Source: an uncultured Gammaproteobacteria bacterium
GTDB taxonomy: Bacteria > Patescibacteriota > Microgenomatia > Levybacterales > UBA12049
Direction: 5' to 3'
NCBI GenBank assembly: GCA_964406285.1
Contig: CAYORA010000004.1
Location: 1-36,736, forward strand
DNA length: 36,736 nt
In this document: piece after piece, positions 10,299 to 36,736 of the stretch
Numbering within the stretch: position 1 is the first letter of the stretch
How the letters are laid out: each line of letters begins with the position of its first letter
The notes under the pieces: generated by a model
Seen by the model: only the letters and a program-made list of their open reading frames with translations
Databases searched by the model: none
Told to the model about the DNA's origin: nothing
Made by a program: the position numbers and the translations under genes

Positions 10299-11654
10299 AT
10301 GCCTCGTTTTTTTGAGAAAAATAAGTACTGGATTATATTTCATTCTCTGATTACTTTTATTCTTCTTCTTGTATTTTTTCTTGAGTTTAAAGTCGTAGGC
10401 CAAAGTGTTTATGGTGATGCCAGGTATTATATAGGATTTACCCGTTCAATTTATTTCTCTCAGAATATTGATATAACGGATGAAATCGCTCATTATTGGA
10501 GCCCGGAAAGTAATAATAAACCAGCAAGTTTTGATTCAGTTCCAGAACTAAAAAATGTGATTAAAGTAACAACGCACAACTTTTCTTTAGGAATTTCAGT
10601 GATTTGGCTACCGATTTATTTTATTGCAGACATTTTAGTAATTTTAGCTTCTAAGTTTAATCCCACAATAGTTAGGAATGGATACAGCGATATATATCAA
10701 ATAATTTTAGGGATGGGAAATATCTTGTTTGTGGTTAGCGGATTAATAATTATCTCGAAAATTTTGTCAAACTTTTATTCAAGGTTTGTTAGTAGCATGG
10801 CGATTATTTCAATTCTATTTACTACTAACCTTTTTTATTATTCAGCAATTGATGTAGTAAATACCCATCCATTTTCTTTTTTAGGAACATCATCCCTTTT
10901 ATATTTGTTTTTTAAACATAAGGAGAAGAAAAATATTAAATTATTATTTATCCAAGGAATAATTTTAGGATTGTTAACTGCAAATAGAATGCAGGATGGA
11001 ATTCTTATTTTGATTCCGTTATTTACAGTTTTTAGTAATTTAAAAATAAAAAAAATCAAACTTAAGTCAGTTGCAGTAAGTTTAATAATTACAGGAGCTG
11101 GTGGATTAGTTGGATATCTACCGCAATTAATTTTATTATTCTTGGGTCAGGGTAAATTCTTATTAATTCCTCATTTGGTAAAAGCTGAAAATGATTTTTC
11201 ATTATTATCGCATTTATCAGATATTTTTGTTGACCAAAAACTAGGAATACTATTCTACATGCCTTCCTTAATTTTTTCATTCGTAGGATTGTATCTTTTG
11301 AGAAATAAAAAGAAAATCGGAGCATCATTATATTTAACAATTTTATTTTTAGTTATAGCTCTTATTTCAAGTTATGACGGATGGAATGTCGCTGGGTATA
11401 CCGCTAGATATTTTATAAGTATATTTCCAATTCTTGTATTTGGATTTGCAGAAGTAATAAATATTATTAATAAAAAATATTCAAAAATATTTTTGTATTT
11501 TGTAATTTTAATTTTTATTTTTCATCAAGGAATAAGCATTCTCTCGTTTAAATTATTCTGGCAAGACCCAACATATGTCGGTTCAGAATTATCACAGTCC
11601 GGGAAGATCAAGATGAAAGTTTTAGAAACGGTTACAAGGCATCTTTCAATGTAA
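10299..11654 (+). CDS. polytopic membrane protein, GT-C-like glycosyltransferase (ArnT/PMT-like)
   Basis: At least 10 hydrophobic segments. The first loop after TM1 carries an acidic/aromatic motif, YGDARYY, like the catalytic first external loop of GT-C enzymes. The fold assignment is inferred. Confidence 0.6.
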   Translation: MPRFFEKNKYWIIFHSLITFILLLVFFLEFKVVGQSVYGDARYYIGFTRSIYFSQNIDITDEIAHYWSPESNNKPASFDSVPELKNVIKVTTHNFSLGISVIWLPIYFIADILVILASKFNPTIVRNGYSDIYQIILGMGNILFVVSGLIIISKILSNFYSRFVSSMAIISILFTTNLFYYSAIDVVNTHPFSFLGTSSLLYLFFKHKEKKNIKLLFIQGIILGLLTANRMQDGILILIPLFTVFSNLKIKKIKLKSVAVSLIITGAGGLVGYLPQLILLFLGQGKFLLIPHLVKAENDFSLLSHLSDIFVDQKLGILFYMPSLIFSFVGLYLLRNKKKIGASLYLTILFLVIALISSYDGWNVAGYTARYFISIFPILVFGFAEVINIINKKYSKIFLYFVILIFIFHQGISILSFKLFWQDPTYVGSELSQSGKIKMKVLETVTRHLSM

Positions 11655-11660
11655 ATATTA

Positions 11661-11669
11661 TGATAGAAT
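11661..11669 (+). promoter_or_regulatory. extended -10 box TGaTAGAAT, 9 nt upstream of ATG 11679 (leaderless configuration)
   Basis: taTGATAGAATtattgactaATG. Confidence 0.45.
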
Positions 11670-11678
11670 TATTGACTA

Positions 11679-12509
11679 ATGAGAGAAGTTGATATATCTA
11701 TAATATTTGTTTATTACAATACTCCAAGAGAAATCTTAAATGCTGTTAAGTCTGTAAAGAAAGCATGCGAAAAATATAATTACGAAGTAATAATCGTTGA
11801 TAACGATTCTAAAGAAAAAATACCTCCTGAAATTCATAAGTTTGAAAAGGTAAAATATATAAGAAATAAAAATATCGGGTATGGTTTGGGATTAAACAAA
11901 GGCGCTGAAAATGCAAAAGGAAAATATCTTCTTTTTTCAAATTCAGATCTGTTATTCACGCCAGGGTCTATTGAGAAGATGATTGATAAGCTTGAATCAG
12001 ATTTAGCGATCGGAATAATTGGCCCTGCATTTTTAGACAAAAATAAAAAGATTAGAAAAGTTGGAAATAGTATGCCCTTTTTCCCTCAGGTTATTTTTGC
12101 ACTTTCATCGTTGAATAAGCTTTTTCCTAGTAATTATTTTTCAAATAAATATTTTCTTAAAGAATTTGATAGAAAAAGCGAAAGGGAGATTCCAGTTATT
12201 TGTGGAGCATGTATGATGATTAGGAAAAACATCTTTAAAGAGATCGGAAAATTTGATAAAAGATTTTTTATGTATTTTGAAGAAGCTGATATTTGCTATC
12301 GAGTGTCTAAGAAAGGATTAAGAGTGTTATATTATCCAAGTTCAAAAGTGATTCATTATGTTGGCAGGAGTTCTGCTAATTTGAAATGGATCGAGAAAAC
12401 ATTTGAAAAAAGTAGATTTGAATTTTTAAAAAAATATTACGGAGTATATTTAGGAACATTTTTTGAAGTAATTATAAGAACCATAAATCTGCCCGCTAGC
12501 TTTATATGA
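11679..12509 (+). CDS. GT2-family glycosyltransferase (rhamnosyltransferase-like)
   Basis: ISIIFVYYNTP...VIIVDNDSKE, FSNSDLLF (DxD-like), CGACMMIRK, FFMYFEEADICYR. This is the typical soluble GT-A/GT2 layout. Confidence 0.85.
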   Translation: MREVDISIIFVYYNTPREILNAVKSVKKACEKYNYEVIIVDNDSKEKIPPEIHKFEKVKYIRNKNIGYGLGLNKGAENAKGKYLLFSNSDLLFTPGSIEKMIDKLESDLAIGIIGPAFLDKNKKIRKVGNSMPFFPQVIFALSSLNKLFPSNYFSNKYFLKEFDRKSEREIPVICGACMMIRKNIFKEIGKFDKRFFMYFEEADICYRVSKKGLRVLYYPSSKVIHYVGRSSANLKWIEKTFEKSRFEFLKKYYGVYLGTFFEVIIRTINLPASFI

Positions 12510-13510
12510 AAATAGTTTTCTTAACTAGAAGATTCTGGCCGGACAGAGGTGGGGTGGAGAAGCATGTTCATGAAATTTCCAAAATCCTAATCAAAAAAGG
12601 ACATATTGTAACTGTTGTTACGGAGTCTGAGGGTAATTCTTTGGAAATCGATAAGATAAAAGTTGTAAGAATACCTGATCTCCCAACAGGTAAAAAAAGA
12701 AAATTTTATATTTGGTTATGGATAATAAAAAACCGAGAAATATTTCAGACTGCAGATGTCATTCATGCGCATGATGTGTATTATCAGTATTTTCCGCTTA
12801 AACTTACCTTTCTGAGTAAAAAAAGTTTTATAACTTTTCATGGGTACGAAACTTATCCAATAACAAAAAAGGCAATACTAATTAGAAAAATCTCTGAGAA
12901 ATTAGCCACAGGAAATATAATAGTTGGGAGTTTTATGAAGAAGTGGTATGGGGTAAAACCCACTTTCATAATTTATGGAGGAGTTAAGCTTCCTAAGAAA
13001 AATACAAAATCCAGGAAATTAAATTCTGCAATATTTATTGGTAGACTTGATGAGCATACTGGAATTATGGAGTATGCTAAAGCTGTCGAGAAAATAAAGA
13101 AAACAAATCCAAATTTTAGCCTAAAGATTCTTGGAGATGGTCCTTATCTTAAGCGTTTAAGTAAGTTTAGGCCAATAGGATTTAAAGAAAATTCCAGTGA
13201 TTATTTACCAAAATATAACTTTGCATTTGTAAGTCGTTATCTTGCGATTCTGGAAGCACTTTCCTGCAAAAGATTAGTATTTGCTTTATATGATAATCCT
13301 GTTAAGAAAGATTATTTAGAAATGACACCTTTCATAAATTTTATAATTACAGCGGACTCTTCTGAAAAATTGGTAAGGAAAATAAGATATTTCCAGAAAA
13401 ATCCAAAACAAGCAAATAAATTTATAAATGCAGGATATAAGTGGGTTAAAGATCAAACATGGGAAAACGTAACTGACACATATTTAAAACTTTGGAGAAA
13501 GCGAAGATAA
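12506..13510 (+). CDS. GT-B fold glycosyltransferase (GT4-like)
   Basis: MKIVFLTRRFWPDRGGVEKHVHEISK is a GT4-type N-terminus, and the C-terminal half has FIGRLDEHTG...ILEALSCKRLVFA. ATGA overlap with the upstream GT2 stop. Confidence 0.7.
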   Translation: MKIVFLTRRFWPDRGGVEKHVHEISKILIKKGHIVTVVTESEGNSLEIDKIKVVRIPDLPTGKKRKFYIWLWIIKNREIFQTADVIHAHDVYYQYFPLKLTFLSKKSFITFHGYETYPITKKAILIRKISEKLATGNIIVGSFMKKWYGVKPTFIIYGGVKLPKKNTKSRKLNSAIFIGRLDEHTGIMEYAKAVEKIKKTNPNFSLKILGDGPYLKRLSKFRPIGFKENSSDYLPKYNFAFVSRYLAILEALSCKRLVFALYDNPVKKDYLEMTPFINFIITADSSEKLVRKIRYFQKNPKQANKFINAGYKWVKDQTWENVTDTYLKLWRKRR

Positions 13511-13525
13511 TTATTTTTTCTTCGC
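13501..13525. terminator. hairpin GCGAAGA-N11-TCTTCGC enclosing both stop codons of a convergent gene pair (possible bidirectional terminator)
   Basis: 7-bp stem (13501-13507 and 13519-13525). The loop taattattttt contains TAA (+) and TTA (= TAA on the minus strand). T-rich sequence follows on the minus strand. Weak by canonical standards. Confidence 0.25.
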
Positions 13526-14935
13526 GATTATCACGACGTAAGTAAATAAATCTCTTGGACCAAAGCTAAATTTTTCTAGTTCAAATCCTGATTTTAGTAG
13601 AAGATTTTTAATTTGCTTTTTAGATTTTACCTTTGTTATTTCTTCGGGATGAAGTCTAATTTTTTTACCTAAAATATCATTTAGAATGAAATGCATCGAG
13701 TTTAGAAATAATACACTTATTCCAAACGCAGGAGGCCAGAAGAGGACAATTTTTCCTTCTTTTTTTAGAACTCTTTTAAATTCCTTTAAGATGCTTAAAA
13801 TTTCTTTTTCTGTAAAATGTTCCATAACTCCTAAGTTGTAAATACCGTCAAAACTTTCTTTTTTTGCTGGTATTCTAAAGATGCTTCCGTGGATGATTTC
13901 ACACCTGTCTTTGTACAGGCGTTTATAGAGATTAAGAGCACCTGTTGAGATATCAAGTGCTGTAACATTTATATATTTAATAATGTCAGCATCCACCTGG
14001 CCACCACCAGAACCTGCATGGAGAACATTAGAGCCTTTCTTAAAAGTATTTTTTATATGACGGTTTAAATTCTGCCTAATGATATATTTACGATAAAAAA
14101 TTGCCACTGTATCATAAAGAATTTTTCTATTTCTTTTATCAAACTTCCAATATTCATCCCATTCATCTTCAACGCTTGATCTAAATTTACCTGGGGTTAG
14201 TAATTGTGGAGTATAAAGGAACAGATCTTGATACGTATTAAATAAGTAAAATGTTTTTAATAATAAAATCAGGCTTGTGTAAATATCCTTAAAAGTCATT
14301 TTGGAGTTTCCATAAGTTCGCGCTGGTAATTCAATAGAGATTTCTGAGATTTTAAATTTATTAACATGTAGAAAGAACATGCTTTCAAAAAAGAAAGAAT
14401 AACTATTAGATTCAATCTTCGAAAATATATCTTTAGGAATTTGTTCTAAATTATAAAGTCTGAATGCGCTTGTAGCGTCGTATGGTATTTTTAAGAGCTT
14501 TTTTGTTAAAAAGTGTGCAGTTAGTGTTAAAGATTTTCTAACTACATTCCATTCAGATAGACTATTTTTAGAAATATATCTGGATCCTACTATCACGTCA
14601 CCAGTATTTTTTTTAATTAAAAATCTTTTTATGTCTTCAGGTTTGTGAGTGAAATCTGAATCCATCGTAATTAGATTTTTATATTTATTTAAATACGCAA
14701 AGCTAATTGCGTCTTTATGAGCGCTTCCTATTCCTAGTTTTCTTTTTCTAAATAATAAAAAAACAGAAGAGTCTTTCTTTATTAAATCTTTAATAATTTT
14801 AGTAGTGCCATCTTTTGAGTTATCATCTATAAACAAAATATCTGAAGTAATTTTTGTTTTTTTTATTCGGGTGTAAATTGTTAAGATATTATTCTTTTCG
14901 TTATAGGTGGGGATTGCTATAAGAACTTTTTTCAT
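13511..14935 (-). CDS. fusion protein: DPM1-like polyprenyl-phosphate glycosyltransferase (GT2) plus class I SAM methyltransferase
   Basis: N-terminal half: IAIPTYNEKNNI, FIDDNSKDGT, MDSDFTHKPEDI, GSRY, DATSAFRLY, RTYGNSKM (dolichyl/polyprenyl-phosphate sugar synthase pattern). C-terminal half: VLHAGSGGGQVD (SAM motif I), ALDIS, FDGIYNLGVMEHF, LKKEGKIVLFWPP. An SD-like AAGGAAA lies 7 nt upstream of the ATG. Confidence 0.8.
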   Translation of the reverse strand: MKKVLIAIPTYNEKNNILTIYTRIKKTKITSDILFIDDNSKDGTTKIIKDLIKKDSSVFLLFRKRKLGIGSAHKDAISFAYLNKYKNLITMDSDFTHKPEDIKRFLIKKNTGDVIVGSRYISKNSLSEWNVVRKSLTLTAHFLTKKLLKIPYDATSAFRLYNLEQIPKDIFSKIESNSYSFFFESMFFLHVNKFKISEISIELPARTYGNSKMTFKDIYTSLILLLKTFYLFNTYQDLFLYTPQLLTPGKFRSSVEDEWDEYWKFDKRNRKILYDTVAIFYRKYIIRQNLNRHIKNTFKKGSNVLHAGSGGGQVDADIIKYINVTALDISTGALNLYKRLYKDRCEIIHGSIFRIPAKKESFDGIYNLGVMEHFTEKEILSILKEFKRVLKKEGKIVLFWPPAFGISVLFLNSMHFILNDILGKKIRLHPEEITKVKSKKQIKNLLLKSGFELEKFSFGPRDLFTYVVIIAKKK

Positions 14936-15033: not shown

Positions 15034-15921
15034 ATGAAAACAGAAAAAATAATTTGTCCAGTTTGTAATTCGAATGAAATAAAAATACTAAGACCAAGCG
15101 AAGTAAATCCAAAAAAAATCTCATTTACGTACAAATTTACAAAGGAAACTAAAAAAACCTTTCAAGTAAACAGATGTTCGAATTGTTCACATATTTTTTG
15201 TTACCCACTTCCTAAAAACATATATAAAAATTATAAAGATGTTGTAGATCAGGTTTATTTAAAATATTCTGAATCCAGAAAGCAATCTGCAGAAGAAATC
15301 TTAAAAAAATTAAATATGTATAAAAGCCATGGACGCATTCTTGATATAGGATGTGCTACGGGTGATTTTCTTCTTGTAGCGAAAGAAGCAGGTTATGAGG
15401 TTGAAGGATTAGAGCTTTCAAAATGGTCATCAAAAATCGCAGAAAAAAAAGGATTAAAAGTTTACAGAGATACAATGAAAGTTCTGTCAAAAAAATATCC
15501 ACGTCGTTATGATCTGATTACAATGTGGGGTGTAATTGAGCATTTCGAATATCCCTCTGAGGAAATGATTTATATTAACAAACTTCTTAAAAAAAATGGC
15601 ATACTTGCTCTTTGGACTGGAGATGTTGATAGTATTACCAGTAAATTATTAGGGAAGAATTGGTGGTATTGGCAAGGCCAACACATACAGTATTTTACTG
15701 GGAAAAGTATGGATATCCTAACAAAGAAGTCAGGTATTAAGCATTTGAAAACTTATTTATATCCTCAAGCAATGAATCTTAATCAACTAAATGATTCATT
15801 AAGAAGATATGCACATAGAAATTTAATTTTAGTTTTTATAAAGCCATTTTTTCTAATAAAACATATTTGGTATTTAAGAATTCCAGGGGAGATGTTATGG
15901 ATTGGAAGGAAAATTAAATAA
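15034..15921 (+). CDS. SAM-dependent methyltransferase with N-terminal 4-Cys zinc ribbon
   Basis: CPVCNS...CSNCSH, then SAM motif I ILDIGCATGDFL, YDLITMWGVIEHF, and LKKNGILALWTGD. Confidence 0.8.
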   Translation: MKTEKIICPVCNSNEIKILRPSEVNPKKISFTYKFTKETKKTFQVNRCSNCSHIFCYPLPKNIYKNYKDVVDQVYLKYSESRKQSAEEILKKLNMYKSHGRILDIGCATGDFLLVAKEAGYEVEGLELSKWSSKIAEKKGLKVYRDTMKVLSKKYPRRYDLITMWGVIEHFEYPSEEMIYINKLLKKNGILALWTGDVDSITSKLLGKNWWYWQGQHIQYFTGKSMDILTKKSGIKHLKTYLYPQAMNLNQLNDSLRRYAHRNLILVFIKPFFLIKHIWYLRIPGEMLWIGRKIK

Positions 15922-19042: not shown

Positions 19043-19567
19043 ATGAAATTTACTAAAACTAAGTTTAATGAATTACTGATAGTTGAAACAGATCAGTTTG
19101 ATGACGAAAGAGGATATTTGGCTAAATATTATGATGAAGATTTTTATAAAAAAAATAATATTAAATTTAAATTAACCCAAGTAAAATTTGTTTCCACCAA
19201 AACAAAAGCAACTATAAGAGGTCTTCACATGCAGTCAAAACCATATGAGGAGGCAAAAATTGTCAGATGTGTAAAAGGAAAAATATTTGAAGTTGCATTG
19301 GATTTAAGAAAAAACTCTAAAACTTATGGCAAGTGGTTTGGTCAGGAGTTTTCCGAAGATGATAAAAAATGTCTTTATATTCCTAAGGGTTTTGCGCATG
19401 GATACCAAACTCTTGTAAATAACACTGATGTCCTATATTTAATGTCAGGAGAATTTTCATTGCTACATAATATTGGCTATAGATGGAATGATCCCGCTTT
19501 TGGTATTTCCTGGCCCCTAAAACCAACTGTAATGGCCCAGAAAGATAAAAATTGGCCACTGGTATGA
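19043..19567 (+). CDS. rfbC: dTDP-4-dehydrorhamnose 3,5-epimerase
   Basis: DERGYL, RGLHMQ, KIVRCVKGKIFEVALDLRKNSKTYGKW, LYIPKGFAHGYQTL, and YRWNDPAFGISWP are canonical RmlC cupin motifs. Confidence 0.93.
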   Translation: MKFTKTKFNELLIVETDQFDDERGYLAKYYDEDFYKKNNIKFKLTQVKFVSTKTKATIRGLHMQSKPYEEAKIVRCVKGKIFEVALDLRKNSKTYGKWFGQEFSEDDKKCLYIPKGFAHGYQTLVNNTDVLYLMSGEFSLLHNIGYRWNDPAFGISWPLKPTVMAQKDKNWPLV

Positions 19568-30378: not shown

Positions 30379-30437
30379 AATATTAACTTTACAAAAGTTT
30401 TTCTAGTTGTTATCATGCCTAAGTTTTGAAACGTAAT

Positions 30438-31340
30438 ATGATCTATGACTGTTTCCCATTTTATAACGAGCTTGAAGTTTTAGATATTAGACTTCATGAA
30501 TTAGATAGCGTTGTAGATAAGTTTGTATTAGTTGAAAGTACTGTAACTCATACAAATAAACCAAAGCCGCTTTACTACAAAAACAATAAAGATAAGTTTA
30601 AAAAATTTAATAAAAAGATAATACATATTATTGTCGACGATGCTCCCGATATCGACATGACATGGGTTTTGGAAAGGTACTTTTTTACAGCAGTTGAACG
30701 CGGTTTAAAAAATGCAAAGCCCAACGATATAATTTTATATTCTTCTGCAGATGAAATACCCAAGGCAGAGAAAGTTGTTGAATGGATGAATAAACCAGGA
30801 TCAATCAAGGCATTTGATGAAAAATCATGTTATTACTTTCTAAACTTTATAGATGTAAAAAATGATAACAAAACTCCAATCACTGTAACTAGAATGTTTA
30901 GGTATAAGGAAGTTAAAAAGTTAAAGGATATTTATTATGCATATAGGGTAAAACCAGATGTAATAATTCCAGATGGAGGATGGCACTTTTCTTATATTGG
31001 TGGAGTGAAAAGGATTCAAGATAAAATTGCTTCTTTCGCACATCAAGAATTTAATAATGATAAATTTAATACTCCTGAAAGAATCAAAAAATCTATGCTG
31101 CTCGGAAAAGATCCTTTCGGTTATGGTCGAAAATTTAAAATAGTAAGTCCTGAGACTCTCCCGAAATATGTAATTGAAAATCAAGATAAATTTAAAGATT
31201 TAATACTTACAAAAAAGAATTTAAATGCGAATATTATAAGAATGCAAATTTTTTATTTAGATTTAAAACATTATTTAAGGATTTTAATTCTCAGAAGATT
31301 ACGCAAAAGCTTTGTTTCTACCAGATCTAAATTATCTTAA
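30438..31340 (+). CDS. glycosyltransferase family 17-like (GnT-III-like)
   Basis: MIYDCFPFYNELEVLDIRLHELDSVVDKFVLVES..TH..KPKPLYY, SSADEIP, and DGGWHFSYIGG...IASFAHQEF match the GT17 pattern. ATG 30438 is preferred; the track start TTG 30426 remains possible. Confidence 0.8.
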   Translation: MIYDCFPFYNELEVLDIRLHELDSVVDKFVLVESTVTHTNKPKPLYYKNNKDKFKKFNKKIIHIIVDDAPDIDMTWVLERYFFTAVERGLKNAKPNDIILYSSADEIPKAEKVVEWMNKPGSIKAFDEKSCYYFLNFIDVKNDNKTPITVTRMFRYKEVKKLKDIYYAYRVKPDVIIPDGGWHFSYIGGVKRIQDKIASFAHQEFNNDKFNTPERIKKSMLLGKDPFGYGRKFKIVSPETLPKYVIENQDKFKDLILTKKNLNANIIRMQIFYLDLKHYLRILILRRLRKSFVSTRSKLS

Positions 31341-32912
31341 GATTCTCTTTTGAACGGTAAATCCTTCAATTCCACTTGACAATTGTTTTGTATTTATTAT
31401 TCGGCCAAAATTGTTAAACTTAAGCATTCTTTGAGAGTAGCCTGAGGATATGGATTTATTGGGGATGATTATGTAATATGTCCCAGATTTTAGATTTCTG
31501 AATTGATCTTTTTCATTTATAAACACAGGAACTCCACCACCAGATGTATAAGCTCTGTCTTGATTAATTGGATAATGGGTACTACTTAAAAATTGAAAAA
31601 TATATTTATAATCTATTACTTTTTCTCCTCCTGTTAAATAAATTATGTTAAACGGTGTATTGTTTGAATCTTTATAAACATACTCTATAGGAGTTTTGAT
31701 CCGAATTTCATTTTTTAAATTTTTATATTCTTTATAAGTTTGTATTTGCTTATTTAAATTATCAATAAAAGAGTTAAAAGAAATTAAAATAATTAATATT
31801 ACGAAGAATTGCGCAAAAATATTTTTTTTAAAAAGATATGAAAGTAAAATAGCAGAAAAAAATATGTAGGTAATCGTGAGATACGTAATCCACCAGAATG
31901 ATGCACGCTCAACTGGAATAATTGTTATTAAAATAAATGTAAAAGGAATTATTAAGAGAAGATAGGAAATAAAGATTTTACTAAATATTTTTATTTTTTT
32001 ATCTTTAATATAAAAATAGAATCCGATTAGTAGAATTAAAAAAATAAAAACTAATAGTTTATAATCGAAAATTGGGAAAACTGTCGATAGATCTGTTTTA
32101 AAAAGATGTAGTCTATCAGCCAAAACTAAAATGTACGGAAATCTTTCTTCGCCAGTGCTTTTAAATAAAACACTAATTAACCCTTTTAAATTGTAAAAAT
32201 TATTAGTTAGGTCATATATAAGATGTGGGATGAATGAGATAGAAAATATTAACACTGATTTTAAAAATGTAGTTTTGTTTATGATTCTCTTATAAAGAAA
32301 ATAAATAAAAAGAGTAATAAAGCTGGGTAGTAGAAGTCCTAATGAGGCAATTTCAAATTGAGAAATTAACGAAAGAGAGAATACGGAAATATATAGGTAT
32401 TTATTTTCTTTTCTAGGAAAAAATAAATAGAGAAAACATAAATGAAAAACCATTAAAAGTGGAACGATAAAAGGTGGCCATGCTAAGTTAACCCATTTTA
32501 TTAGATATGGTGAAGTGCCTAATAGAAAGGCAGCTAAGAAGCCTTCCGTTTTCCCAAAATATTTATAGGCAAAAACTGAAGTAAAAAGAAATATTAAAAA
32601 ACTTATAATTACCATAAATAATTTTCCTCCAACTGGATCCCCGTTAAAAATCATAAAGAAAGGAATAAGTAGGTAGCTCCATAAAGGTCCTTGTGCAAAA
32701 CCACCGATTTCTCCAACTACGTGCCCTAATAGAGGAAAGTGAAAATTATTAACTATGTCGTTTGTCTGAAAATAATAAAATGCAAAATCTCCATTGAAAT
32801 AATCAGATTTAGTAAAAAAAGAAATAAGTCTTGGAATCGAAAATATAGTTAGGAAAATAATGAAATAGAAATTACGTTTGATTAATTTAGAAATAGTAAT
32901 TTTTGAACTCAC
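31332..32912 (-). CDS. polytopic GT-C-like glycosyltransferase (ArnT/GT39-like)
   Basis: About 14 hydrophobic segments. First loop: NGDFAFYYFQTNDIVNNFHFPLLGHVVGEIGGFAQGPLWSY, clearly related to the loop of ORF 34096. GTG start with no nearby in-frame ATG. Overlaps the GT17 gene by 9 nt, convergently. Confidence 0.6.
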   Translation of the reverse strand: MSSKITISKLIKRNFYFIIFLTIFSIPRLISFFTKSDYFNGDFAFYYFQTNDIVNNFHFPLLGHVVGEIGGFAQGPLWSYLLIPFFMIFNGDPVGGKLFMVIISFLIFLFTSVFAYKYFGKTEGFLAAFLLGTSPYLIKWVNLAWPPFIVPLLMVFHLCFLYLFFPRKENKYLYISVFSLSLISQFEIASLGLLLPSFITLFIYFLYKRIINKTTFLKSVLIFSISFIPHLIYDLTNNFYNLKGLISVLFKSTGEERFPYILVLADRLHLFKTDLSTVFPIFDYKLLVFIFLILLIGFYFYIKDKKIKIFSKIFISYLLLIIPFTFILITIIPVERASFWWITYLTITYIFFSAILLSYLFKKNIFAQFFVILIILISFNSFIDNLNKQIQTYKEYKNLKNEIRIKTPIEYVYKDSNNTPFNIIYLTGGEKVIDYKYIFQFLSSTHYPINQDRAYTSGGGVPVFINEKDQFRNLKSGTYYIIIPNKSISSGYSQRMLKFNNFGRIINTKQLSSGIEGFTVQKRILR

Positions 32913-32964: not shown

Positions 32965-32993
32965 TTGACCGAAATTAAGCTATCTTGTATAGT
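32965..32993 (+). promoter_or_regulatory. promoter TTGACC-N17-TATAGT, 12 nt upstream of ATG 33006
   Basis: -35 at 32965-32970, spacer ending in TG, -10 at 32988-32993. Confidence 0.5.
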
Positions 32994-33005
32994 TCATTCA
33001 TAAAT

Positions 33006-34103
33006 ATGAGGATAGCAGTTTTTCATGAACTTCCAGAAGGAGGGGCATTAAAAGTAGTTAACGAAATGTCTAAAGGTCTTAAAAATGAACATGTGGTTGA
33101 CCTATATACTACAACAGAAAAATTTAATCATAAAGAATATTACGCAAATACATTTATATATAAATTTAAACCAAAAGTATGGATTGGTGGAAATTTTAAA
33201 ACAAGGATTTATAAAGATTCAATAGAACTTATAAAACTTTTTTTATTGCATAAAAAAATCGCAAAAGATATTAGAGAAAAAAAATACGATATTCTTTTTG
33301 TAAATGGTTCCAAATATATTGAGGCACCATTTATACTTTTATTTAAAAACAAAAATAAAGTTCTTTTTTGTCATAACACAAACTATAGATTTATTTACGA
33401 GCCAATTCTTAACAATACTAATGATTTAGACGTTATTAGAAAATCTTACGAAAAATTAAATAGAACAATTAGAAAATATTTAGACATTATAAATATTAAA
33501 TCTGCAGATAAAATATTAACTGGATCAAAATATGAAAAGCAGATGATTAAAAAAACTTATGGACTTGAAAGTAAAAATATTTCCTATGGAGTTAACTTCG
33601 ATTTTTTCAAACCAAAAAATACAAAGAAAAAATACGACGTTTTGTTTATTGGTACCTCACACTTACTAGAGGGATATCCCACCTTAGAAGAGGTGGAAAA
33701 GCTACTGCCTAAAAGTTTTAAGGTAAAAAAAATCTTAGGAGATATTAAATGGGTAACTGACGTTTATGAATTAAGAGATTTATACCAAAGTTCTAGAATT
33801 ACTTTATGTCTTGGTCATAATGAGCCTTTTGGTTTAACTCCGTTAGATTCTATGAGCTGTGAAGTTCCCGTAATTGCTGTTAATGAAGGGGGTTATAGGG
33901 AAACTGTAATTGACGGAGTTACGGGTTACCTAGTCCCAAGAAATCCAGAGATAATTGCAAAAAAAATTACTTATCTTTTAAAAAATGAAAGAAAGAGAAA
34001 AAGAATGGGAGAAAAGGGAAGGGAAGAAATGATTAGAAATTATAATTGGGATAAAAATATTACTGAGGTTGAAAGGATATTTCGGTTAATGGCAAATGTT
34101 TAA
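33006..34103 (+). CDS. GT-B fold glycosyltransferase (GT4)
   Basis: MRIAVFHELPEGG at the N-terminus. The C-terminal motif EPFGLTPLDSMSCEVPVIAVNEGGYRETVIDGVTGYLV is the GT4 EX7E region. ATG 33006 is preferred over the track TTG at 32985, which lies inside the predicted promoter. Confidence 0.88.
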   Translation: MRIAVFHELPEGGALKVVNEMSKGLKNEHVVDLYTTTEKFNHKEYYANTFIYKFKPKVWIGGNFKTRIYKDSIELIKLFLLHKKIAKDIREKKYDILFVNGSKYIEAPFILLFKNKNKVLFCHNTNYRFIYEPILNNTNDLDVIRKSYEKLNRTIRKYLDIINIKSADKILTGSKYEKQMIKKTYGLESKNISYGVNFDFFKPKNTKKKYDVLFIGTSHLLEGYPTLEEVEKLLPKSFKVKKILGDIKWVTDVYELRDLYQSSRITLCLGHNEPFGLTPLDSMSCEVPVIAVNEGGYRETVIDGVTGYLVPRNPEIIAKKITYLLKNERKRKRMGEKGREEMIRNYNWDKNITEVERIFRLMANV

Positions 34104-35550
34104 ATTTTTATATAAAAAAGAAGTCGTATTTCTCATTTTTATTTTATTATTTGGTTTGGAAATTAGATTATATGCGCTTTCATCCCAAATGCATATGATT
34201 TCTGATCAGGGGTGGTTTTTTCTTTCTGCGAAAGAAATTTTCGAAACCGGAAAAATTCCGTTAATTGGAATTACCTCATCTCATACATGGTTAAATCAGG
34301 GGCCAATCTGGACATATATACTTGCCATAATTTTATGGTTAGGTAAGTTCAATCCGATAGCAGCAGGATATTTTTCAGTCCTTCTTGATGTAGCTACAAT
34401 TCTAGTGCTCTATAAAGTTTCTAAAGAATTATTTTCAAAAAATATTGGACAAATTGCTTCAATTCTTTATGCAACATCACCTTTGATAATTATCCATTCA
34501 CGAATGCCTTATCACACTTCCCCTATTCCTATTCTTTCTATTCTTTTTGTTTATTTTCTTTATCGTTTTGTAAAAGGGAATGTGATTTATTTTCCATTAG
34601 CGCTTCTTATCTGTATGCTTTTATATAATTTCGAGCTCGCTACGGTTTTATTCCCAGGAGTTCTATTTGTCTTTCTTTTTTATGGAATTTGGAAAAAGAA
34701 AAAATGGGCAAAAATATTTAATAAAAAAATTATCTTTCTTAGTTTACTTTCATTAATTCCAATGATTCCAATTATTATTTATGATTTTAAAAATGGTTTT
34801 TTCCAAACTGTAAAATTTGCAGGATGGTTATTTTTTCAGGCACTTGGAAGCATAGGAATAGAAATAATTCCCCAAGATCCACATCCATCATGGCAGAGCT
34901 TTTTTACATTTTTCTCATACGAATTTAGAAGAATTATTTTTTACAGAAGTGAAGAATTTTCAATATTAATTTTATTTAGTGTTATTCTTTTAAATTTAGC
35001 ATTGATTCATAAGCTTTATAAGAAGAAATTATTTAAAACTAATTATATTGTTTTTTATTTGACATCAATTATTTTATTTTCTGGATTTATATCGCAGCGA
35101 GAAAGCAGTAGTGCTTATCTTACAATGCTTTTTCCATACATAATTTTATTAATTGCCTTGTCAGCGAATGCATTAACTAAAAAGAAAAAAGTAATCGCAT
35201 ATTTATTTCTTATCTTAGTTGTTCCTCTTTCTAATTCTTATTATTTATTTAAAGAATATCGAACAAGTGATGGCGGAGGATTAAACAAGCTTATCAGGGC
35301 ATCAGAATTTATAGTTGATGACTCCGAAGGGAAAAATATAAATTTGGAAAGAAAAAATTTTAAGTCGAATATAGGAATATATCAATATAAATATTTAGTT
35401 TGGTGGAAAGGTGGAAGTTTGAAAGGCGAGCCGGAGATAGAATATGGAATTTATAATGCTTCAGAAGGAGTTCCGCAAGACTACATTTACTCTGATGGAA
35501 ATATTTATATAACAAAAACAGAAAAATATTTCATTGTTTTGGTAAAATAA
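34096..35550 (+). CDS. polytopic GT-C-like glycosyltransferase (ArnT/GT39-like)
   Basis: About 12 hydrophobic segments. First loop: ISDQGWFFLSAKEIFETGKIPLIGITSSHTWLNQGPIWTY. Small C-terminal soluble domain. Overlaps the GT4 gene by 8 nt. Confidence 0.62.
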   Translation: MFKFLYKKEVVFLIFILLFGLEIRLYALSSQMHMISDQGWFFLSAKEIFETGKIPLIGITSSHTWLNQGPIWTYILAIILWLGKFNPIAAGYFSVLLDVATILVLYKVSKELFSKNIGQIASILYATSPLIIIHSRMPYHTSPIPILSILFVYFLYRFVKGNVIYFPLALLICMLLYNFELATVLFPGVLFVFLFYGIWKKKKWAKIFNKKIIFLSLLSLIPMIPIIIYDFKNGFFQTVKFAGWLFFQALGSIGIEIIPQDPHPSWQSFFTFFSYEFRRIIFYRSEEFSILILFSVILLNLALIHKLYKKKLFKTNYIVFYLTSIILFSGFISQRESSSAYLTMLFPYIILLIALSANALTKKKKVIAYLFLILVVPLSNSYYLFKEYRTSDGGGLNKLIRASEFIVDDSEGKNINLERKNFKSNIGIYQYKYLVWWKGGSLKGEPEIEYGIYNASEGVPQDYIYSDGNIYITKTEKYFIVLVK

Positions 35551-35554
35551 AATC

Positions 35555-36316
35555 ATGAGCTATCAAATATCTGCTGTAGTCCTCACAAAGAACGAAGAAA
35601 AAAATATTATTGATTGTCTAGAGGCATTAAAATTTGCTGAAGAAATAATTATAGTTGATGATAATTCGACTGACAGAACAAGAGATCTAATTGAAGTTTT
35701 TGAAAAAACACATCCGAAAGTTAAGCTTTTTAAGAGAAGTCTTGATGGAGATTTTTCTCTTCAAAGGAAATTTGGAGTAGAGAAAACACGAAATGATTGG
35801 GTCATGTTTGTAGATGCTGATGAAAGAATTTCCCAAGAACTTTCAACAGAGATAAAAGAGAGAATTTCTGAAGAGTATTCGGGGTTTTTGATCCCTAGGC
35901 GAGATTTTATGTGGGGAAAGGAGCTTATGCACGGGGAAACAGGAAGAACAAAGTTATTGAGACTTTTTAATAAAAATAAAGGTAGTTTGAAGGGAAAAGT
36001 TCACGAGACATGGGAAACAAAAAGTGAAGTAGGAATATTGATAAATCCAATTAAGCACTATCCGCATCCGACAATTTCAGAGTTTTTAAGAGAAATAAAT
36101 TTCTATACAGATCTTCGTGCGGAGGAGCTTAAAGAAAAAGGAATAAAAGCGAATGCTCTATCGATAATTCTTTATCCTAAAGCAAAATTTGTCACAAATT
36201 ATTTTCTAAAACTTGGAATTTTAGATGGCACTGCGGGTTTAGTCCATGCGATACTTATGAGCTTTCATTCATTTCTTGTCCGAGGAAAGCTTTGGCTTTT
36301 ATGGCAAAAAAGTTAA
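35555..36316 (+). CDS. GT2-family glycosyltransferase (KdtX/WaaE-like)
   Basis: ISAVVLTKNEEKNIIDCLEALKFAEEIIIVDDNSTDRT and FVDADERIS (DxD), plus a C-terminal GILDGTAGLVHAILMSF typical of this GT2 subgroup. Confidence 0.85.
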   Translation: MSYQISAVVLTKNEEKNIIDCLEALKFAEEIIIVDDNSTDRTRDLIEVFEKTHPKVKLFKRSLDGDFSLQRKFGVEKTRNDWVMFVDADERISQELSTEIKERISEEYSGFLIPRRDFMWGKELMHGETGRTKLLRLFNKNKGSLKGKVHETWETKSEVGILINPIKHYPHPTISEFLREINFYTDLRAEELKEKGIKANALSIILYPKAKFVTNYFLKLGILDGTAGLVHAILMSFHSFLVRGKLWLLWQKS

Positions 36317-36389
36317 ACTCCATTTTTCTTATTTGGTCAGTCTTAATTCTTCTTTATTATTTAATAATTCTTTTATGTAGGGGAGGAAT

Positions 36390-36736
36390 ATGTTTGCGCT
36401 AGCTTTTTTAGTAGGAATTTATAGTTATGTAATTTTCAGCCTGGGAATTCTCGGAGCATTAACTCGGGGACCTGTTATTTTTTCTACAGTTTTATTGCTT
36501 GCAGGATCATATTTATACTTCAGGAAACATAAAGAAGATTTTCCAAGAATAAATTTTAAAAATAAAAAAATCAGGCCATATCTAGTTTTATTTGGAATTT
36601 TAGCCATTGTAAATTTAATTGGGGCACTAGGACCAGAGCTCTCATTTGATGCTCTTTGGTACCACCTAACAATTCCTAAGATTTTTATTCAAGAACAGAG
36701 AATTTTCTATATAGAAGGCGGTTTATTTTATTACTC
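36390..36736 (+). CDS. polytopic GT-C-like membrane protein, 3'-truncated by the window edge (absent from the ORF track)
   Basis: ATG 36390 is preceded by GGGAGG (36381-36386). The frame stays open to the last base: MFALAFLVGIYSYVIFSLGILGAL...LGPELSFDALWYHLTIPKIFIQEQRIFYIEGG. It has two TM helices, then an acidic/aromatic first loop. Confidence 0.6.
   Translation, partial: MFALAFLVGIYSYVIFSLGILGALTRGPVIFSTVLLLAGSYLYFRKHKEDFPRINFKNKKIRPYLVLFGILAIVNLIGALGPELSFDALWYHLTIPKIFIQEQRIFYIEGGLFYY

What the first reader, a model, noticed from the sequence alone, without database searches (positions are those of the whole stretch)
10299..36736. 26-kb envelope-glycan locus built from repeated 'cytoplasmic GT2 plus polytopic GT-C-like' modules
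From 10.3 kb to the window edge every gene is glycan-related. There are seven polytopic proteins (10299, 15922, 20641, the C-terminal part of 26594, 31332, 34096, 36390). Each carries an acidic/aromatic motif in the loop after an early TM helix: YGDARYY, GDFNVHIYR, FDYQAF..YRDLYYPYG, HMDEWHQ, GDFAFYY, SDQGWFF, SFDALWYH. That is where GT-C enzymes (ArnT, PMT, PglB, Emb/Aft) place their catalytic acidic residues. They are interleaved with six GT2 domains, two of them clearly DPM1-like polyprenyl-phosphate sugar synthases (13511, 22608). GT-C-like and GT2 genes are often translationally coupled: 20641/22608 overlap by 7 nt and 34096/35555 are 4 nt apart. The architecture suggests stepwise extracytoplasmic assembly from lipid-phosphate monosaccharide donors, as in mycobacterial arabinogalactan/LAM or YfhO/GtrC-type decoration, rather than a classical Wzy O-antigen pathway. 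This window has no priming phosphoglycosyltransferase (WecA/WbaP type), no recognisable Wzy/Wzz and no small GtrA-type flippase. A small, compact genome giving this much space to GT-C paralogs suggests an uncharacterised and probably essential surface-glycan or protein-glycosylation system.
Basis: partly seen in the sequence, partly recalled or inferred. Interest (0 to 1): 0.75.

Follow-up and report, generated by a model that had tools for sequence, protein, structure and literature searches.

The report
Surface-sugar gene island rich in membrane glycosyltransferases
A tiny-genome (candidate phyla radiation) bacterium devotes about 29 kb to a fast-evolving surface-glycan gene island that pairs an ordinary flip-and-polymerise pathway with seven membrane enzymes predicted to add sugars outside the cell, one of them from a family with no Pfam or NCBIfam match.

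Summary
From 10299 to the window edge all 22 genes are glycan-related. All seven named polytopic proteins are GT-C or GT-C-like. Three reach Pfam's PMT_2 cutoff, one of them through its full-length copy outside the window. Two are sub-threshold PMT_2. One belongs to the PTPS_related family and has a GT-C fold model. One (20641) has no Pfam hit, and only its model resembles AglB, ALG12 and Pmt4. There are six GT2 domains, and two carry the DPM1/GtrB/ArnC signature. The early-loop Asp is invariant in two deep alignments, about 90% conserved in a third, and predicted to face outward.

A contig 99.7% identical to the window shows a Wzy_C protein about 1.2 kb beyond the edge. So this is a hybrid. 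A Wzx/Wzy_C backbone sits beside several GT2-plus-GT-C extracytoplasmic glycosylation modules, most like Gram-positive rhamnose-rich cell-wall polysaccharide loci.

The lineage is Patescibacteria (Levybacteria-like). The locus keeps its gene order but diverges fast: GT-C proteins are 45-70% identical where ParB is 98%. I rate it a new variant of a known kind, of moderate interest.

The parts
10299..11654 (+). GT-C 'a', a PMT_2-like polytopic protein of 451 aa. The loop-1 motif is YGDARYY.
   Evidence: Pfam PMT_2 E 6.6e-4, below the gathering score. NCBIfam LA_3751/3752 putative glycosyltransferase family E 1.8e-12, below cutoff. Only 21 homologs were found, and one is named Levybacteria. D40 and Y44 are invariant in 20/20 sequences, including members at 18-28% identity.
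11679..12509 (+). Cytoplasmic GT2 with a weak rhamnosyltransferase-like match.
   Evidence: PF00535 E 5.9e-29. TIGR01556 rhamnosyltransferase E 2.9e-13, below cutoff. Its 3' end overlaps the GT4 gene by 4 nt.
12506..13510 (+). Cytoplasmic GT4.
   Evidence: Glyco_transf_4 E 6e-14 and Glycos_transf_1 E 9e-13.
13511..14935 (-). DPM1-like GT2 (residues about 1-225) fused to a SAM methyltransferase (about 295-400).
   Evidence: Best PDB matches are P. furiosus DPMS 5mlz (1.1e-14), ArnC and GtrB. NCBIfam top hits are PgfS, PpgS and ArnC, all below cutoff. Methyltransf_11 E 8e-15. It is 31% identical to 22608. The fusion is kept in L002 at 78% identity.
15034..15921 (+). SAM methyltransferase with an N-terminal Cys-rich segment.
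   Evidence: Methyltransf_23 E 1.9e-24. There is no ortholog at this position in L002.
15922..17664 (-). GT-C 'b' of the PTPS_related family, 580 aa. The motif GDYESGDFNVHIYR lies in the outward loop. A C-terminal beta-sandwich is followed by a terminal TM helix.
   Evidence: Most of the 120 listed homologs (483 found) carry PF10131, and some also carry PMT_2. PF10131 belongs to Pfam clan GT-C (PMC7801869). The AF2 model has pLDDT 86 and pTM 0.89. The top 26 Foldseek PDB hits are all GT-C enzymes: STT3, PglB, AglB, ALG12, AftD, ArnT, EmbA/B and Pmt1/2, with TMq 0.29-0.46. The D of GDF, plus H and R, are invariant in 35/35.
17682..18935 (-). NDP-hexose C-methyltransferase 1.
   Evidence: Methyltransf_14 E 2.8e-49 and the Methyltransf_13 zinc domain.
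19043..19567 (+). dTDP-4-dehydrorhamnose 3,5-epimerase (RmlC).
   Evidence: PF00908 E 2.5e-53.
19552..20430 (+). dTDP-4-dehydrorhamnose reductase (RmlD). The start is probably at 19564.
   Evidence: PF04321 E 2.6e-71. The gene call on the near-identical contig is 288 aa.
20641..22614 (+). Polytopic protein 'c', 657 aa, with no Pfam or NCBIfam family. It is predicted GT-C-like, with about 11 TM helices and a 290-aa C-terminal domain predicted to lie outside.
   Evidence: No Pfam or NCBIfam hit for this protein. No consistent Pfam hit for 38 homologs scanned at E<=1, and none for 10 longer relatives scanned at E<=0.01. The family profile finds 1056 cluster representatives. The AF2 model has pLDDT 87. 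Foldseek top hits are AglB 7e9s (E 2e-5), 3waj, ALG12 and Pmt4, with TM only 0.30-0.40. hhalign to the 10299 family gives probability 74%, E 2.9e-5. D44 is 34/39, D64 is 34/39 plus 2 E, D174 is 39/39, E308 is 38/39, and Q309, K310 and R314 are 39/39.
22608..23345 (+). DPM1-like polyprenyl-phosphate sugar synthase, 245 aa, with no TM helix. It overlaps 20641 by 7 nt.
   Evidence: PDB best hit is 5mlz DPMS at 1.1e-15, then ArnC and GtrB. The alignment keeps DAD-x-x-H, IGSRY-KGG, D-x-x-SG and R-x-x-G-x-S. NCBIfam PpgS E 7.6e-24 and AglJ E 3.7e-18, both below cutoff. No hydrophobic segment was found.
23348..24586 (-). NDP-hexose C-methyltransferase 2.
   Evidence: Methyltransf_14 E 4e-54 and Methyltransf_13 E 1.4e-19. 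It is 32% identical to 17682.
24685..25554 (+). Cytoplasmic GT2.
   Evidence: PF00535 E 2.4e-29. There is no ortholog in L002.
25607..26572 (+). NAD-dependent sugar epimerase/reductase, GDP-fucose-synthase-like.
   Evidence: Epimerase E 5e-46. NCBIfam Fcl E 2.8e-37, below cutoff.
26594..29134 (+). Fusion protein of 846 aa. A membrane-anchored GT2 module (residues 1 to about 309) is joined to GT-C 'd' (PMT_2). The motif HMDEWHQ lies in the first loop of the GT-C part.
   Evidence: PF00535 E 8e-19 and PMT_2 E 3.2e-12, above the gathering score. The GT2 module exists as a separate 314-aa gene in L008 at 44% identity over its full length. The fusion is kept in L002, L004 and L009. The GT2 part is nearest to TarS and TarP, with DPMS and GtrB only at about 1e-4.
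29155..30378 (+). MOP/Wzx-family flippase, 407 aa.
   Evidence: Polysacc_synt_3 E 5.2e-75. NCBIfam MOP flippase E 7.7e-55 and TuaB E 2.7e-46, below cutoff. In L004, L007 and L009 it directly follows the GT2-PMT_2 fusion, and in L008 it follows the free GT2 module.
30426..31340 (+). GT17-like glycosyltransferase.
   Evidence: PF04724 E 1.6e-29, above the gathering score.
31332..32912 (-). GT-C 'e', PMT_2-like, 526 aa. The loop-1 motif is GDFAFYY.
   Evidence: PMT_2 E 6.9e-5, 23.5 bits against a cutoff of 26.1. BLASTP to 34096 gives E 2e-12. The D of the motif is lost or shifted in the 45%-identical ortholog, and the ortholog in L004 is split into two ORFs.
32985..34103 (+). Cytoplasmic GT4. It overlaps 34096 by 8 nt.
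   Evidence: Glycos_transf_1 E 2e-25.
34096..35550 (+). GT-C 'f', PMT_2, 484 aa. The loop-1 motif is SDQGWFF.
   Evidence: PMT_2 E 3e-10, above the gathering score. The motif is identical in 5/5 orthologs at 69-75% identity.
35555..36316 (+). Cytoplasmic GT2, 4 nt after 34096.
   Evidence: PF00535 E 6e-21.
36390..36736 (+). 5' part of GT-C 'g' (PMT_2), which is 520 aa in full. The motif is SFDALWYH. Outside the window it is followed by a 389-aa Wzy_C gene.
   Evidence: L007, 99.7% identical to the window, gives a 520-aa PMT_2 protein followed by Wzy_C. The L005 ortholog scores PMT_2 E 1.4e-13. The motif is identical in 4/4.

Best explanation
This is the main cell-surface glycan biosynthesis island of a Patescibacteria (Levybacteria-like) bacterium. 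It spans about 28.8 kb, from window 10299 to roughly 2.4 kb beyond the window end. It most likely runs as a hybrid pathway in four steps.

1. Sugar supply (shown by domain content). RmlC, RmlD, an epimerase/reductase, two NDP-hexose C-methyltransferases and further methyltransferases provide modified 6-deoxyhexoses, probably C- and O-methylated.

2. Cytoplasmic assembly (inferred). Soluble GT2, GT4 and GT17-like enzymes build an oligosaccharide on a polyprenyl-phosphate carrier. No phosphoglycosyltransferase is in the locus. Either a DPM1-like GT2 starts the chain on the monophosphate carrier, as WpsA does in Lactococcus lactis, or the primer enzyme is encoded elsewhere.

3. Export and polymerisation or ligation (components shown, roles inferred). 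The MOP/Wzx protein flips the lipid-linked sugars. The Wzy_C protein at the distal end of the locus then polymerises or ligates them.

4. Extracytoplasmic glycosylation (fold, motifs and gene linkage shown; chemistry inferred). The two DPM1-like synthases, 13511 and 22608, make polyprenyl-P-monosaccharide donors. The membrane-anchored GT2 module fused in 26594 may do the same. The seven GT-C enzymes use these donors, or lipid-linked oligosaccharides, to extend or decorate the glycan outside the membrane. Their catalytic centre would be the conserved Asp in the first outward loop.

The GT-C genes diverge fastest, which fits a role in setting strain-specific surface structure.
For: Gene content.

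GT-C assignment:
- PMT_2 is above Pfam's cutoff for 26594 and 34096 and for the full-length 36390 gene.
- 10299 and 31332 have sub-threshold PMT_2 hits, backed by a BLASTP link and an NCBIfam hit.
- 15922 homologs carry PF10131, and all of the top 26 fold matches are GT-C enzymes. PF10131 and PMT_2 are in clan CL0111.
- The top fold matches of 20641 are AglB, ALG12 and Pmt4, and it has a weak profile link to the 10299 family.

Conserved acids.

Orientation: K/R-rich N-termini or preceding loops put the motif loops outside.

Donor synthases.

Coupling of GT2 and GT-C functions:
- A conserved 7-nt overlap joins 20641 and 22608.
- The GT2-GT-C fusion has a GT2 half that is a separate gene in L008, sitting between a 20641-family gene and the same Wzx.
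- The fusion-plus-Wzx pair is conserved in L004, L007 and L009.

Wzx and Wzy_C.

Precedent: PMC9574508 describes Wzx-type flippases in such systems and chains started on C55-P.

Divergence and composition:
- GT-C proteins are 45-70% identical to orthologs in the CAZAZU010000001.1 relative.
- Soluble enzymes with an ortholog in place are 58-85% identical.
- ParB is 98% identical, and RodA and signal peptidase are 92%.
- GC is 0.296 in the locus against 0.356 and 0.366 in the flanks.
Against: - No biochemical data exist. The donors, the acceptors and the glycan itself are all unknown.
- Fold similarity for 20641 is weak, with TM-score 0.30-0.40 and no sequence link to any solved GT-C.
- The GT2 module of 26594 is closer to TarS and TarP than to DPMS or GtrB. 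Its role as a lipid-P-sugar synthase rests on the fusion and on context only.
- Two, or at most three, donor synthases would have to serve seven GT-C enzymes.
- No phosphoglycosyltransferase, Wzz/PCP protein, LCP ligase or GtrA was found in any locus examined.
- Wzy_C also covers ligases and protein O-oligosaccharyltransferases, so polymerase is only one possible role (TIGR04370 hit E 3e-7, below cutoff).
- Topology comes from a crude hydropathy and positive-inside analysis, not from a trained predictor.
- The right-hand flank is only 80-85% identical, so the contrast between island and flank is sharp on the left side only.
Confidence: 0.6

Rival explanations
1. The glycan is assembled step by step outside the membrane from polyprenyl-P-monosaccharide donors by the GT-C enzymes, as in mycobacterial arabinan or mannan, with no Wzx/Wzy-type block assembly.
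For: There are seven GT-C genes and two DPM1-like synthases. No phosphoglycosyltransferase is in the locus.
Against: A MOP/Wzx flippase lies inside the interval, and a Wzy_C gene ends the locus in the same strain and in three relatives. Seven soluble GT2, GT4 or GT17-like genes imply substantial cytoplasmic assembly. No protein hit Emb, Aft, GT87 or Arabinose_trans models, and no decaprenyl-phosphoribose-type donor pathway was seen.
Confidence: 0.12
2. This is mainly a protein O-glycosylation system. The PMT_2-type GT-C enzymes act like protein O-mannosyltransferases, or like the streptococcal GtrB plus GT-C systems, on serine/threonine-rich surface proteins, pili or an S-layer. The Wzy_C protein acts as a PglL-like O-oligosaccharyltransferase.
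For: PMT_2 and TMEM260-like hits point to protein O-mannosyltransferase relatives. NCBIfam hits for the synthases include PgfS and AglJ, which are protein-glycosylation enzymes. The Wzx protein has a weak hit to an 'O-glycosylation flippase' model. A surface protein with Glucodextran_B and Ig-like domains lies next to Wzy_C in L004, L005 and L007, and tblastn finds an 83%-identical match next to Wzy_C in L003.
Against: PMT_2 also covers ArnT-like lipid and glycan glycosyltransferases, so the name says nothing about the acceptor. All the family-specific hits are far below their curated cutoffs. No acceptor protein has been identified. This reading is compatible with the main explanation rather than exclusive of it.
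Confidence: 0.2
3. This is an ordinary Wzx/Wzy capsule or O-antigen-like locus. The polytopic proteins are not catalytic glycosyltransferases. They would be membrane anchors or activators for the TM-less GT2 enzymes (like Ppm2 or GacJ), or polymerase/ligase paralogs.
For: 22608 has no TM helix and is translationally coupled to 20641. 20641 has no sequence link to any characterised GT-C.
Against: A protein of 450-850 aa, with invariant acidic and basic residues in loops predicted to face out and conserved extracytoplasmic domains, is far more than an anchor needs. Five of the seven hit PMT_2, and one has a clear GT-C fold.
Confidence: 0.08

Closest known systems
Multi-component transmembrane glycosylation systems of Gram-positive rhamnose-rich cell-wall polysaccharides: S. 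pyogenes GacI/J/K/L and L. lactis WpsA/B, WpsG, WpsI and WpsJ with the Csd systems (PMC9574508; PMC8035078).
   Same: Both combine rml genes, cytoplasmic GT2 and GT4 enzymes, a DPM1-like GT2 acting on C55-P, and a Wzx-family rather than GtrA-family flippase. Both have polytopic GT-C enzymes that share no sequence similarity with one another and act outside the membrane. Both are low-GC and strain-variable.
   Different: This locus has seven GT-C genes in one place. There are no RgpA-F-type rhamnan genes and no ABC transporter. No GacJ/WpsB-type small activator was recognised. One GT2 is fused to its GT-C partner, and one synthase is fused to a methyltransferase. The two sugar C-methyltransferases, the Wzy_C protein and the CPR host are also different. 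None of the proteins reaches the curated cutoff of a characterised family.
Three-component GtrA/GtrB/GtrC-type systems: O-antigen glucosylation, CsbB/GtcA/YfhO, ArnC/ArnEF/ArnT, and the pentofuranose systems of PMC11127046.
   Same: The logic is the same: a GT2 polyprenyl-P-sugar synthase paired with a GT-C transferase. 22608 and 13511 share the DAD-x-x-H and R-x-x-G-x-S signature with DPMS, and ArnC and GtrB are their next-best solved relatives.
   Different: No GtrA-family flippase is present. The synthases lack the C-terminal TM hairpin of GtrB and ArnC. The modules are embedded in a complete polysaccharide locus instead of acting as add-on decoration cassettes.
Wzx/Wzy-dependent heteropolysaccharide loci (O-antigen, capsule).
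   Same: A MOP/Wzx flippase, a Wzy_C-family protein, nucleotide-sugar genes and soluble glycosyltransferases are present. GC is low and divergence between strains is high.
   Different: No initiating phosphoglycosyltransferase and no Wzz/PCP protein is in the locus. The seven extra GT-C genes are atypical.
Mycobacterial arabinogalactan/LAM assembly (Emb, Aft and Mpt enzymes, with Ppm1 and PpgS/Rv3779).
   Same: Many GT-C enzymes are fed by a few polyprenyl-P-sugar synthases. A TM-less DPM1-like synthase is coupled to a membrane partner, and PpgS is the best NCBIfam hit of 22608.
   Different: There are no sequence hits to Emb, Aft or GT87 families, and no decaprenyl-phosphoribose pathway. The resemblance is in logic only.

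Membership tests
GT-C superfamily (Pfam clan CL0111) | Match to a clan member HMM above the curated cutoff. | tested here: met
   Met for three of the seven. 26594 C-terminal part: PMT_2 47.4 bits. 34096: 41.0 bits, against a cutoff of 26.1. Full-length 36390 gene: PMT_2 on the same-strain contig L007, and its L005 ortholog scores 51.8 bits. 15922 is below cutoff itself, but most homologs carry PF10131. 10299 (20.4 bits) and 31332 (23.5 bits) fall below the cutoff. 20641 has no hit at all.
GT-C superfamily (Pfam clan CL0111) | GT-C fold: a polytopic protein whose structure superposes on solved GT-C enzymes. | tested here: met
   For 15922, the top 26 PDB Foldseek hits are all GT-C enzymes, with probability 0.84-1.00 and TMq 0.29-0.46. 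For 20641 the result is weaker. AglB scores E 2e-5, and ALG12 and Pmt4 follow, but TM is 0.30-0.40, so I treat it as inconclusive to supportive. The other five were not modelled.
GT-C superfamily (Pfam clan CL0111) | A conserved acidic residue in the first extracytoplasmic loop. | tested here: met
   Invariant D in the 10299 family (20/20) and the 15922 family (35/35). In the 20641 family D44 is 34/39 and D64 is 34/39 plus 2 E. The motifs of 26594, 34096 and 36390 are identical in close orthologs only. In 31332 the D is not conserved in one ortholog. The outward orientation comes from the positive-inside rule only.
GT-C superfamily (Pfam clan CL0111) | Use of a lipid-phosphate-linked sugar donor. 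| not testable with these tools
   This needs enzymology. Only linkage to DPM1-like GT2 genes supports it.
Polyprenyl-phosphate sugar synthases (DPM1/DPMS, GtrB, ArnC, PpgS class of GT2) | Closest solved or curated relatives belong to this class, and the class signature motifs are present. | tested here: met
   22608 and 13511 both have best PDB hits 5mlz DPMS (1e-15 and 1e-14), then ArnC and GtrB. The alignment keeps DAD-x-x-H, IGSRY-KGG and R-x-x-G-x-S. The other four GT2 domains do not show this pattern.
Polyprenyl-phosphate sugar synthases (DPM1/DPMS, GtrB, ArnC, PpgS class of GT2) | Score above the curated cutoff of a specific equivalog (PpgS, ArnC, PgfS, AglJ). | tested here: not met
   The best score is 22608 against PpgS, at 84 bits against a cutoff of 370. 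All others are lower. Sugar specificity therefore cannot be assigned.
Three-component GtrABC-type glycosylation system | A GtrA-family small flippase with four TM helices. | tested here: not met
   No such ORF exists. All ORFs of 100 aa or more are accounted for, and the intergenic gaps are at most 210 nt. A Wzx-family flippase is present instead, as in the four-component GacIJKL system.
Wzx/Wzy-dependent pathway | A MOP/Wzx flippase. | tested here: met
   29155-30378 scores Polysacc_synt_3 at 252.8 bits against a cutoff of 23.
Wzx/Wzy-dependent pathway | A Wzy polymerase. | tested here: inconclusive
   A Wzy_C (PF04932) protein lies just beyond the window in the 99.7%-identical contig and in relatives. 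Its L005 ortholog scores 65.9 bits against a cutoff of 31.7. The family also includes ligases and O-oligosaccharyltransferases. The repeat-unit polymerase model TIGR04370 scores 29.7 bits against a cutoff of 40.
Wzx/Wzy-dependent pathway | An initiating phosphoglycosyltransferase (WecA/MraY-type or WbaP-type) and a Wzz/PCP protein. | tested here: not met
   None is in the window. None appeared among the called genes of L002, L007, L008 and L009 or among the L004 and L005 ORFs that I scanned. The rest of the genome was not searched.
Mycobacterial Emb/Aft-type arabinosyltransferases | Match to the Arabinose_trans, AftA_N or GT87 models. | tested here: not met
   No protein in the window hit these models at E<=0.01. 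EmbA/B and AftD appear only as fold-level matches of 15922.

The most novel reading that the evidence does not exclude
Levybacteria-like CPR bacteria build their surface glycan wholly on polyprenyl monophosphate carriers, with no phosphoglycosyltransferase. They would use an unusually large set of extracytoplasmic GT-C enzymes. That set includes a previously unrecognised GT-C family, the 20641 family. This family has about 1000 clusters at 50% identity and no Pfam or NCBIfam model. It is often adjacent to a GT2, a Wzx gene and sugar C-methyltransferases. It would transfer a C-methyl-branched deoxyhexose. Rapid turnover of the GT-C genes would set strain-specific recognition between host and epibiont, or by phages.
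Probability: 0.25. Interest if true: 0.7.

Novelty: new variant of a known kind. Interest (0 to 1): 0.5.

Why it matters
CPR/Patescibacteria are thought to live mostly attached to host cells (general knowledge; PMC13622651 abstract), so their surface is the working interface. Their envelope glycans are essentially uncharacterised. Six of my literature searches linking Patescibacteria or CPR names to glycosyltransferase terms returned nothing on point.

This locus is about 29 kb. That would be roughly 3-4% of the genome if the 785-kb contig of a close relative is near genome size, which is an inference. It gives a concrete parts list with testable residues. It shows that the multi-component GT2 plus GT-C logic known from Gram-positive cell-wall polysaccharides is expanded in a reduced genome. 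It also flags a sizeable unannotated family of probable GT-C enzymes and a natural GT2-GT-C fusion, which could help in assigning donor and transferase pairs. The steep divergence of the GT-C genes marks them as likely determinants of strain-specific surface structure.

Tried and rejected
- Single-sequence and profile searches of 10299, 15922 and 20641 against PDB sequences gave nothing meaningful.
- hhalign of the 20641 family against the 15922 family found no relation.
- Scanning 39 members of the 20641 family in Pfam at E<=1 gave only scattered single-member noise.
- I tested whether the longer 20641-family proteins (770-905 aa) are GT2 fusions. They are not. They have no Pfam hit, and in the two I read (P0315, P0239) the extension is made of extra TM helices.
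- I tested whether the GT2 module of 26594 is DPM1-like. A five-sequence profile puts TarS and TarP first, with DPMS and GtrB only at about 1e-4 over the N-terminal half. I therefore do not call it DPM1-like. The QxxRW motif of processive synthases is not conserved.
- Exact-sequence look-ups of the 35555, 34096, 31332 and 30438 proteins failed because the strains differ by a few residues. The Logan variant of the Wzx protein worked.
- Rfam, the tRNA scan and the promoter/terminator scan added nothing. Promoter-like sites were no more frequent than in shuffled sequence.
- The record titles 'uncultured Gammaproteobacteria' on L003-L006 look like automatic mislabels. Every named homolog is from Patescibacteria or Levybacteria.
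- Cluster look-ups returned no source names.

Full report
**1. The observation**

Upstream of 10299 the genes are housekeeping: an RND-type transporter, an FKBP isomerase, an L,D-transpeptidase, IleRS, RodA/FtsW, L21, ParB and signal peptidase. From 10299 to the window end all 22 genes are glycan-related:
- six GT2 domains, all above Pfam's cutoff
- two GT4 genes and one GT17-like gene
- RmlC, RmlD and an NAD-dependent epimerase/reductase
- two NDP-hexose C-methyltransferases and two further SAM methyltransferase domains
- a MOP/Wzx flippase

The spacing claims are exact. The 7-nt overlap of 20641 and 22608 recurs in a relative whose two proteins are only 51% and 76% identical. GC falls from 0.356 upstream to 0.296 inside the locus.

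**2. Are the seven polytopic proteins GT-C?**

Pfam PMT_2 is above its gathering score for the C-terminal part of 26594 and for 34096. The truncated gene at 36390 is a 520-aa PMT_2 protein in a contig that is 99.7% identical and colinear with the window. Its ortholog in L005 scores E 1.4e-13.

31332 is just below cutoff (23.5 bits against 26.1) but is related to 34096 by BLASTP, E 2e-12. 10299 has a sub-threshold PMT_2 hit and an E 1.8e-12 hit to the NCBIfam LA_3751/3752 putative glycosyltransferase family.

15922 has only faint hits itself. Most of its listed homologs carry PF10131 (PTPS_related), and some also carry PMT_2. Both families belong to Pfam clan GT-C (PMC7801869). An AlphaFold model built from 35 homologs (pLDDT 86, pTM 0.89) gives STT3, PglB, AglB, ALG12, AftD, ArnT, EmbA/B and Pmt1/2 as its top 26 PDB matches.

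20641 is the outlier. It has no Pfam or NCBIfam hit. Its homologs gave only scattered single-member Pfam noise (38 scanned at E<=1, 10 longer relatives at E<=0.01), and the family profile found nothing among PDB sequences. Its model is confident (pLDDT 87). The best PDB matches are AglB (E 2e-5), ALG12 and Pmt4, but TM-scores are only 0.30-0.40. A profile-profile comparison links residues 93-230 to the PMT_2-like core of the 10299 family at 74% probability, E 2.9e-5. I call it GT-C-like with moderate confidence.

Apart from 31332 and 34096, the seven are mutually undetectable by BLASTP. They are distinct lineages, not recent duplicates.

**3. The loop motifs**

In the 10299 family, D40 and Y44 of YGDARYY are invariant in all 20 sequences, including members at 18-28% identity. 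In the 15922 family, the D of GDF together with H and R are invariant in 35/35.

In the 20641 family, D44 is kept in 34/39 and D64 in 34/39 with 2 E. The strictly invariant residues are D174, Q309, K310 and R314, and E308 is 38/39. By helix counting and loop charge these also fall on the outer face, which is an inference.

For 26594, 34096 and 36390 I had only close orthologs, and the motifs are identical in all of them. In 31332 the D is lost or shifted in a 45%-identical ortholog.

A hydropathy and positive-inside analysis puts every motif loop outside the membrane. In 15922 and 36390 the motif follows the second or third hydrophobic segment.

**4. The GT2 enzymes**

13511 and 22608 are 31% identical to each other. 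Their best solved relatives are P. furiosus Dol-P-Man synthase, ArnC and GtrB. The alignment to DPMS keeps the DAD-x-x-H, IGSRY-KGG and R-x-x-G-x-S motifs. The top NCBIfam hits are PpgS, AglJ, ArnC and PgfS, all far below the equivalog cutoffs. The enzyme class is therefore supported, but sugar specificity is not. Both lack the C-terminal TM hairpin of GtrB. 13511 is fused to a SAM methyltransferase.

The other four GT2 domains are generic. The GT2 module of 26594 (residues 1 to about 309, including hydrophobic segments) is closest to TarS and TarP. It occurs as a free-standing 314-aa gene in a distant CPR locus, L008, at 44% identity. There it sits between a 20641-family gene and a Wzx that is 44% identical to 29155. 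The pair of GT2-PMT_2 fusion followed by Wzx is conserved in L004, L007 and L009. This fusion-and-fission pattern is the strongest genomic argument that GT2, GT-C and Wzx work together.

**5.

29155-30378 is a MOP/Wzx flippase, E 5e-75. In the same strain (L007), the 36390 gene is followed by a 389-aa Wzy_C protein that overlaps it by 13 nt. Next comes a convergent surface protein with Glucodextran_B and Ig-like domains, and then YcaO. Wzy_C is conserved in L003, L004 and L005.

The locus therefore ends about 2.4 kb beyond the window and measures about 28.8 kb. No phosphoglycosyltransferase, Wzz, GtrA or LCP gene was seen in any locus.

**6. Comparative genomics**

Named homologs come from Patescibacteria and Candidatus Levybacteria. 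A relative on a 785-kb contig keeps the gene order from signal peptidase to Wzy_C. It swaps sugar-modifying genes, carrying a DegT aminotransferase, extra epimerases and methyltransferases, and a UDP-Glc dehydrogenase. It lacks orthologs of 15034, 24685 and 25607 at the corresponding positions.

Identity to this relative by gene class:

| Gene class | Identity |
|---|---|
| ParB | 98% |
| RodA, signal peptidase | 92% |
| Soluble locus enzymes with an ortholog in place | 58-85% |
| GT-C proteins (full length) | 45, 48, 51, 63, 64, 65 and 70% |
| Right-hand flank | 80-85% |

In L004 the 31332 ortholog is split into two ORFs. The island therefore keeps its gene order but evolves fast, most of all in the GT-C genes.

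**7. Mechanism and comparison with known systems**

The best fit is a hybrid of two known schemes. One is a Wzx/Wzy_C backbone pathway. The other is a set of extracytoplasmic GT2 plus GT-C glycosylation modules. This is the logic described for Gram-positive rhamnose-rich cell-wall polysaccharides (PMC9574508). There, a Wzx-family flippase (GacK, WpsG) replaces GtrA, a DPM1-like GT2 (WpsA) can start a C55-P-linked oligosaccharide, and mutually dissimilar GT-C enzymes polymerise and transfer the product.

The acceptor is not determined and could be a wall polysaccharide, a lipid or a surface protein. Protein O-glycosylation remains a live and compatible alternative. The mycobacterial analogy is one of logic only.

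**8. Verdict**

The feature is real and correctly delimited on the left, and it extends about 2.4 kb to the right of the window. It is a new variant of a known kind. Its unusual points are:
- the density of GT-C genes
- the GT2-GT-C fusion and the synthase-methyltransferase fusion
- a family of about 1000 clusters without a Pfam model
- the recurring sugar C-methyltransferases
- the CPR host.

Six literature searches on glycosyltransferases in this lineage found nothing relevant. I score interest at 0.5.

Noticed in passing
window 17682-18935 (-) and 23348-24586 (-); L008 and L009: There are two NDP-hexose C-methyltransferases (Methyltransf_13/14), 32% identical to each other. Such genes recur next to 20641-family genes in distant CPR loci, with three full-length copies in L008 and two in L009. 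This suggests a C-methyl-branched deoxyhexose in the glycan.
   Followed up: partly
window 13511-14935 (-): A DPM1-like GT2 is fused to a SAM methyltransferase (474 aa). The fusion is conserved at 78% identity in L002. It hints at methylation coupled to synthesis of the lipid-linked sugar.
   Followed up: partly
L004 7506-8807 (-): The ortholog of 31332 (GT-C 'e') is split into two ORFs of 115 and 280 aa. It is probably a pseudogene in that genome, which argues that this GT-C is dispensable.
   Followed up: no
L007 19930-20730 (-); L005 15734-16729 (-); L004 15002-15805 (-): A protein with Glucodextran_B, cadherin-like and bacterial Ig domains lies convergent to, and slightly overlapping, the Wzy_C gene in L004, L005 and L007. 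A tblastn match at 83% identity lies next to Wzy_C in L003. It is a candidate surface glycoprotein acceptor.
   Followed up: no
window 127-1998 (+): This 623-aa ORF matches only the C-terminal half of the AcrB/RND model (positions 498-1019 of 1021), yet the ORF starts inside the window. It may be a split or half-size RND transporter.
   Followed up: no
window 20641-22614, residues about 580-650 of the model: The C-terminal beta-sandwich of the 20641 model weakly resembles the carbohydrate-binding module of AlgX (7ula, 4knc; probability 0.98 over about 90 residues, E 0.4-0.7).
   Followed up: no
L003-L006 record titles: The GTDB representative contigs that carry this locus are titled 'uncultured Gammaproteobacteria bacterium'. 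All named protein homologs are from Patescibacteria or Levybacteria, so the titles are probably automatic mislabels.
   Followed up: partly
L008 5610-6011 and L009 5589-6017: Small genes encoding hydrophobic proteins of 133 and 142 aa overlap the 5' end of the 20641-family genes in distant relatives. No such gene is in the window. They could be GacJ/WpsB-like activators or small flippases.
   Followed up: no
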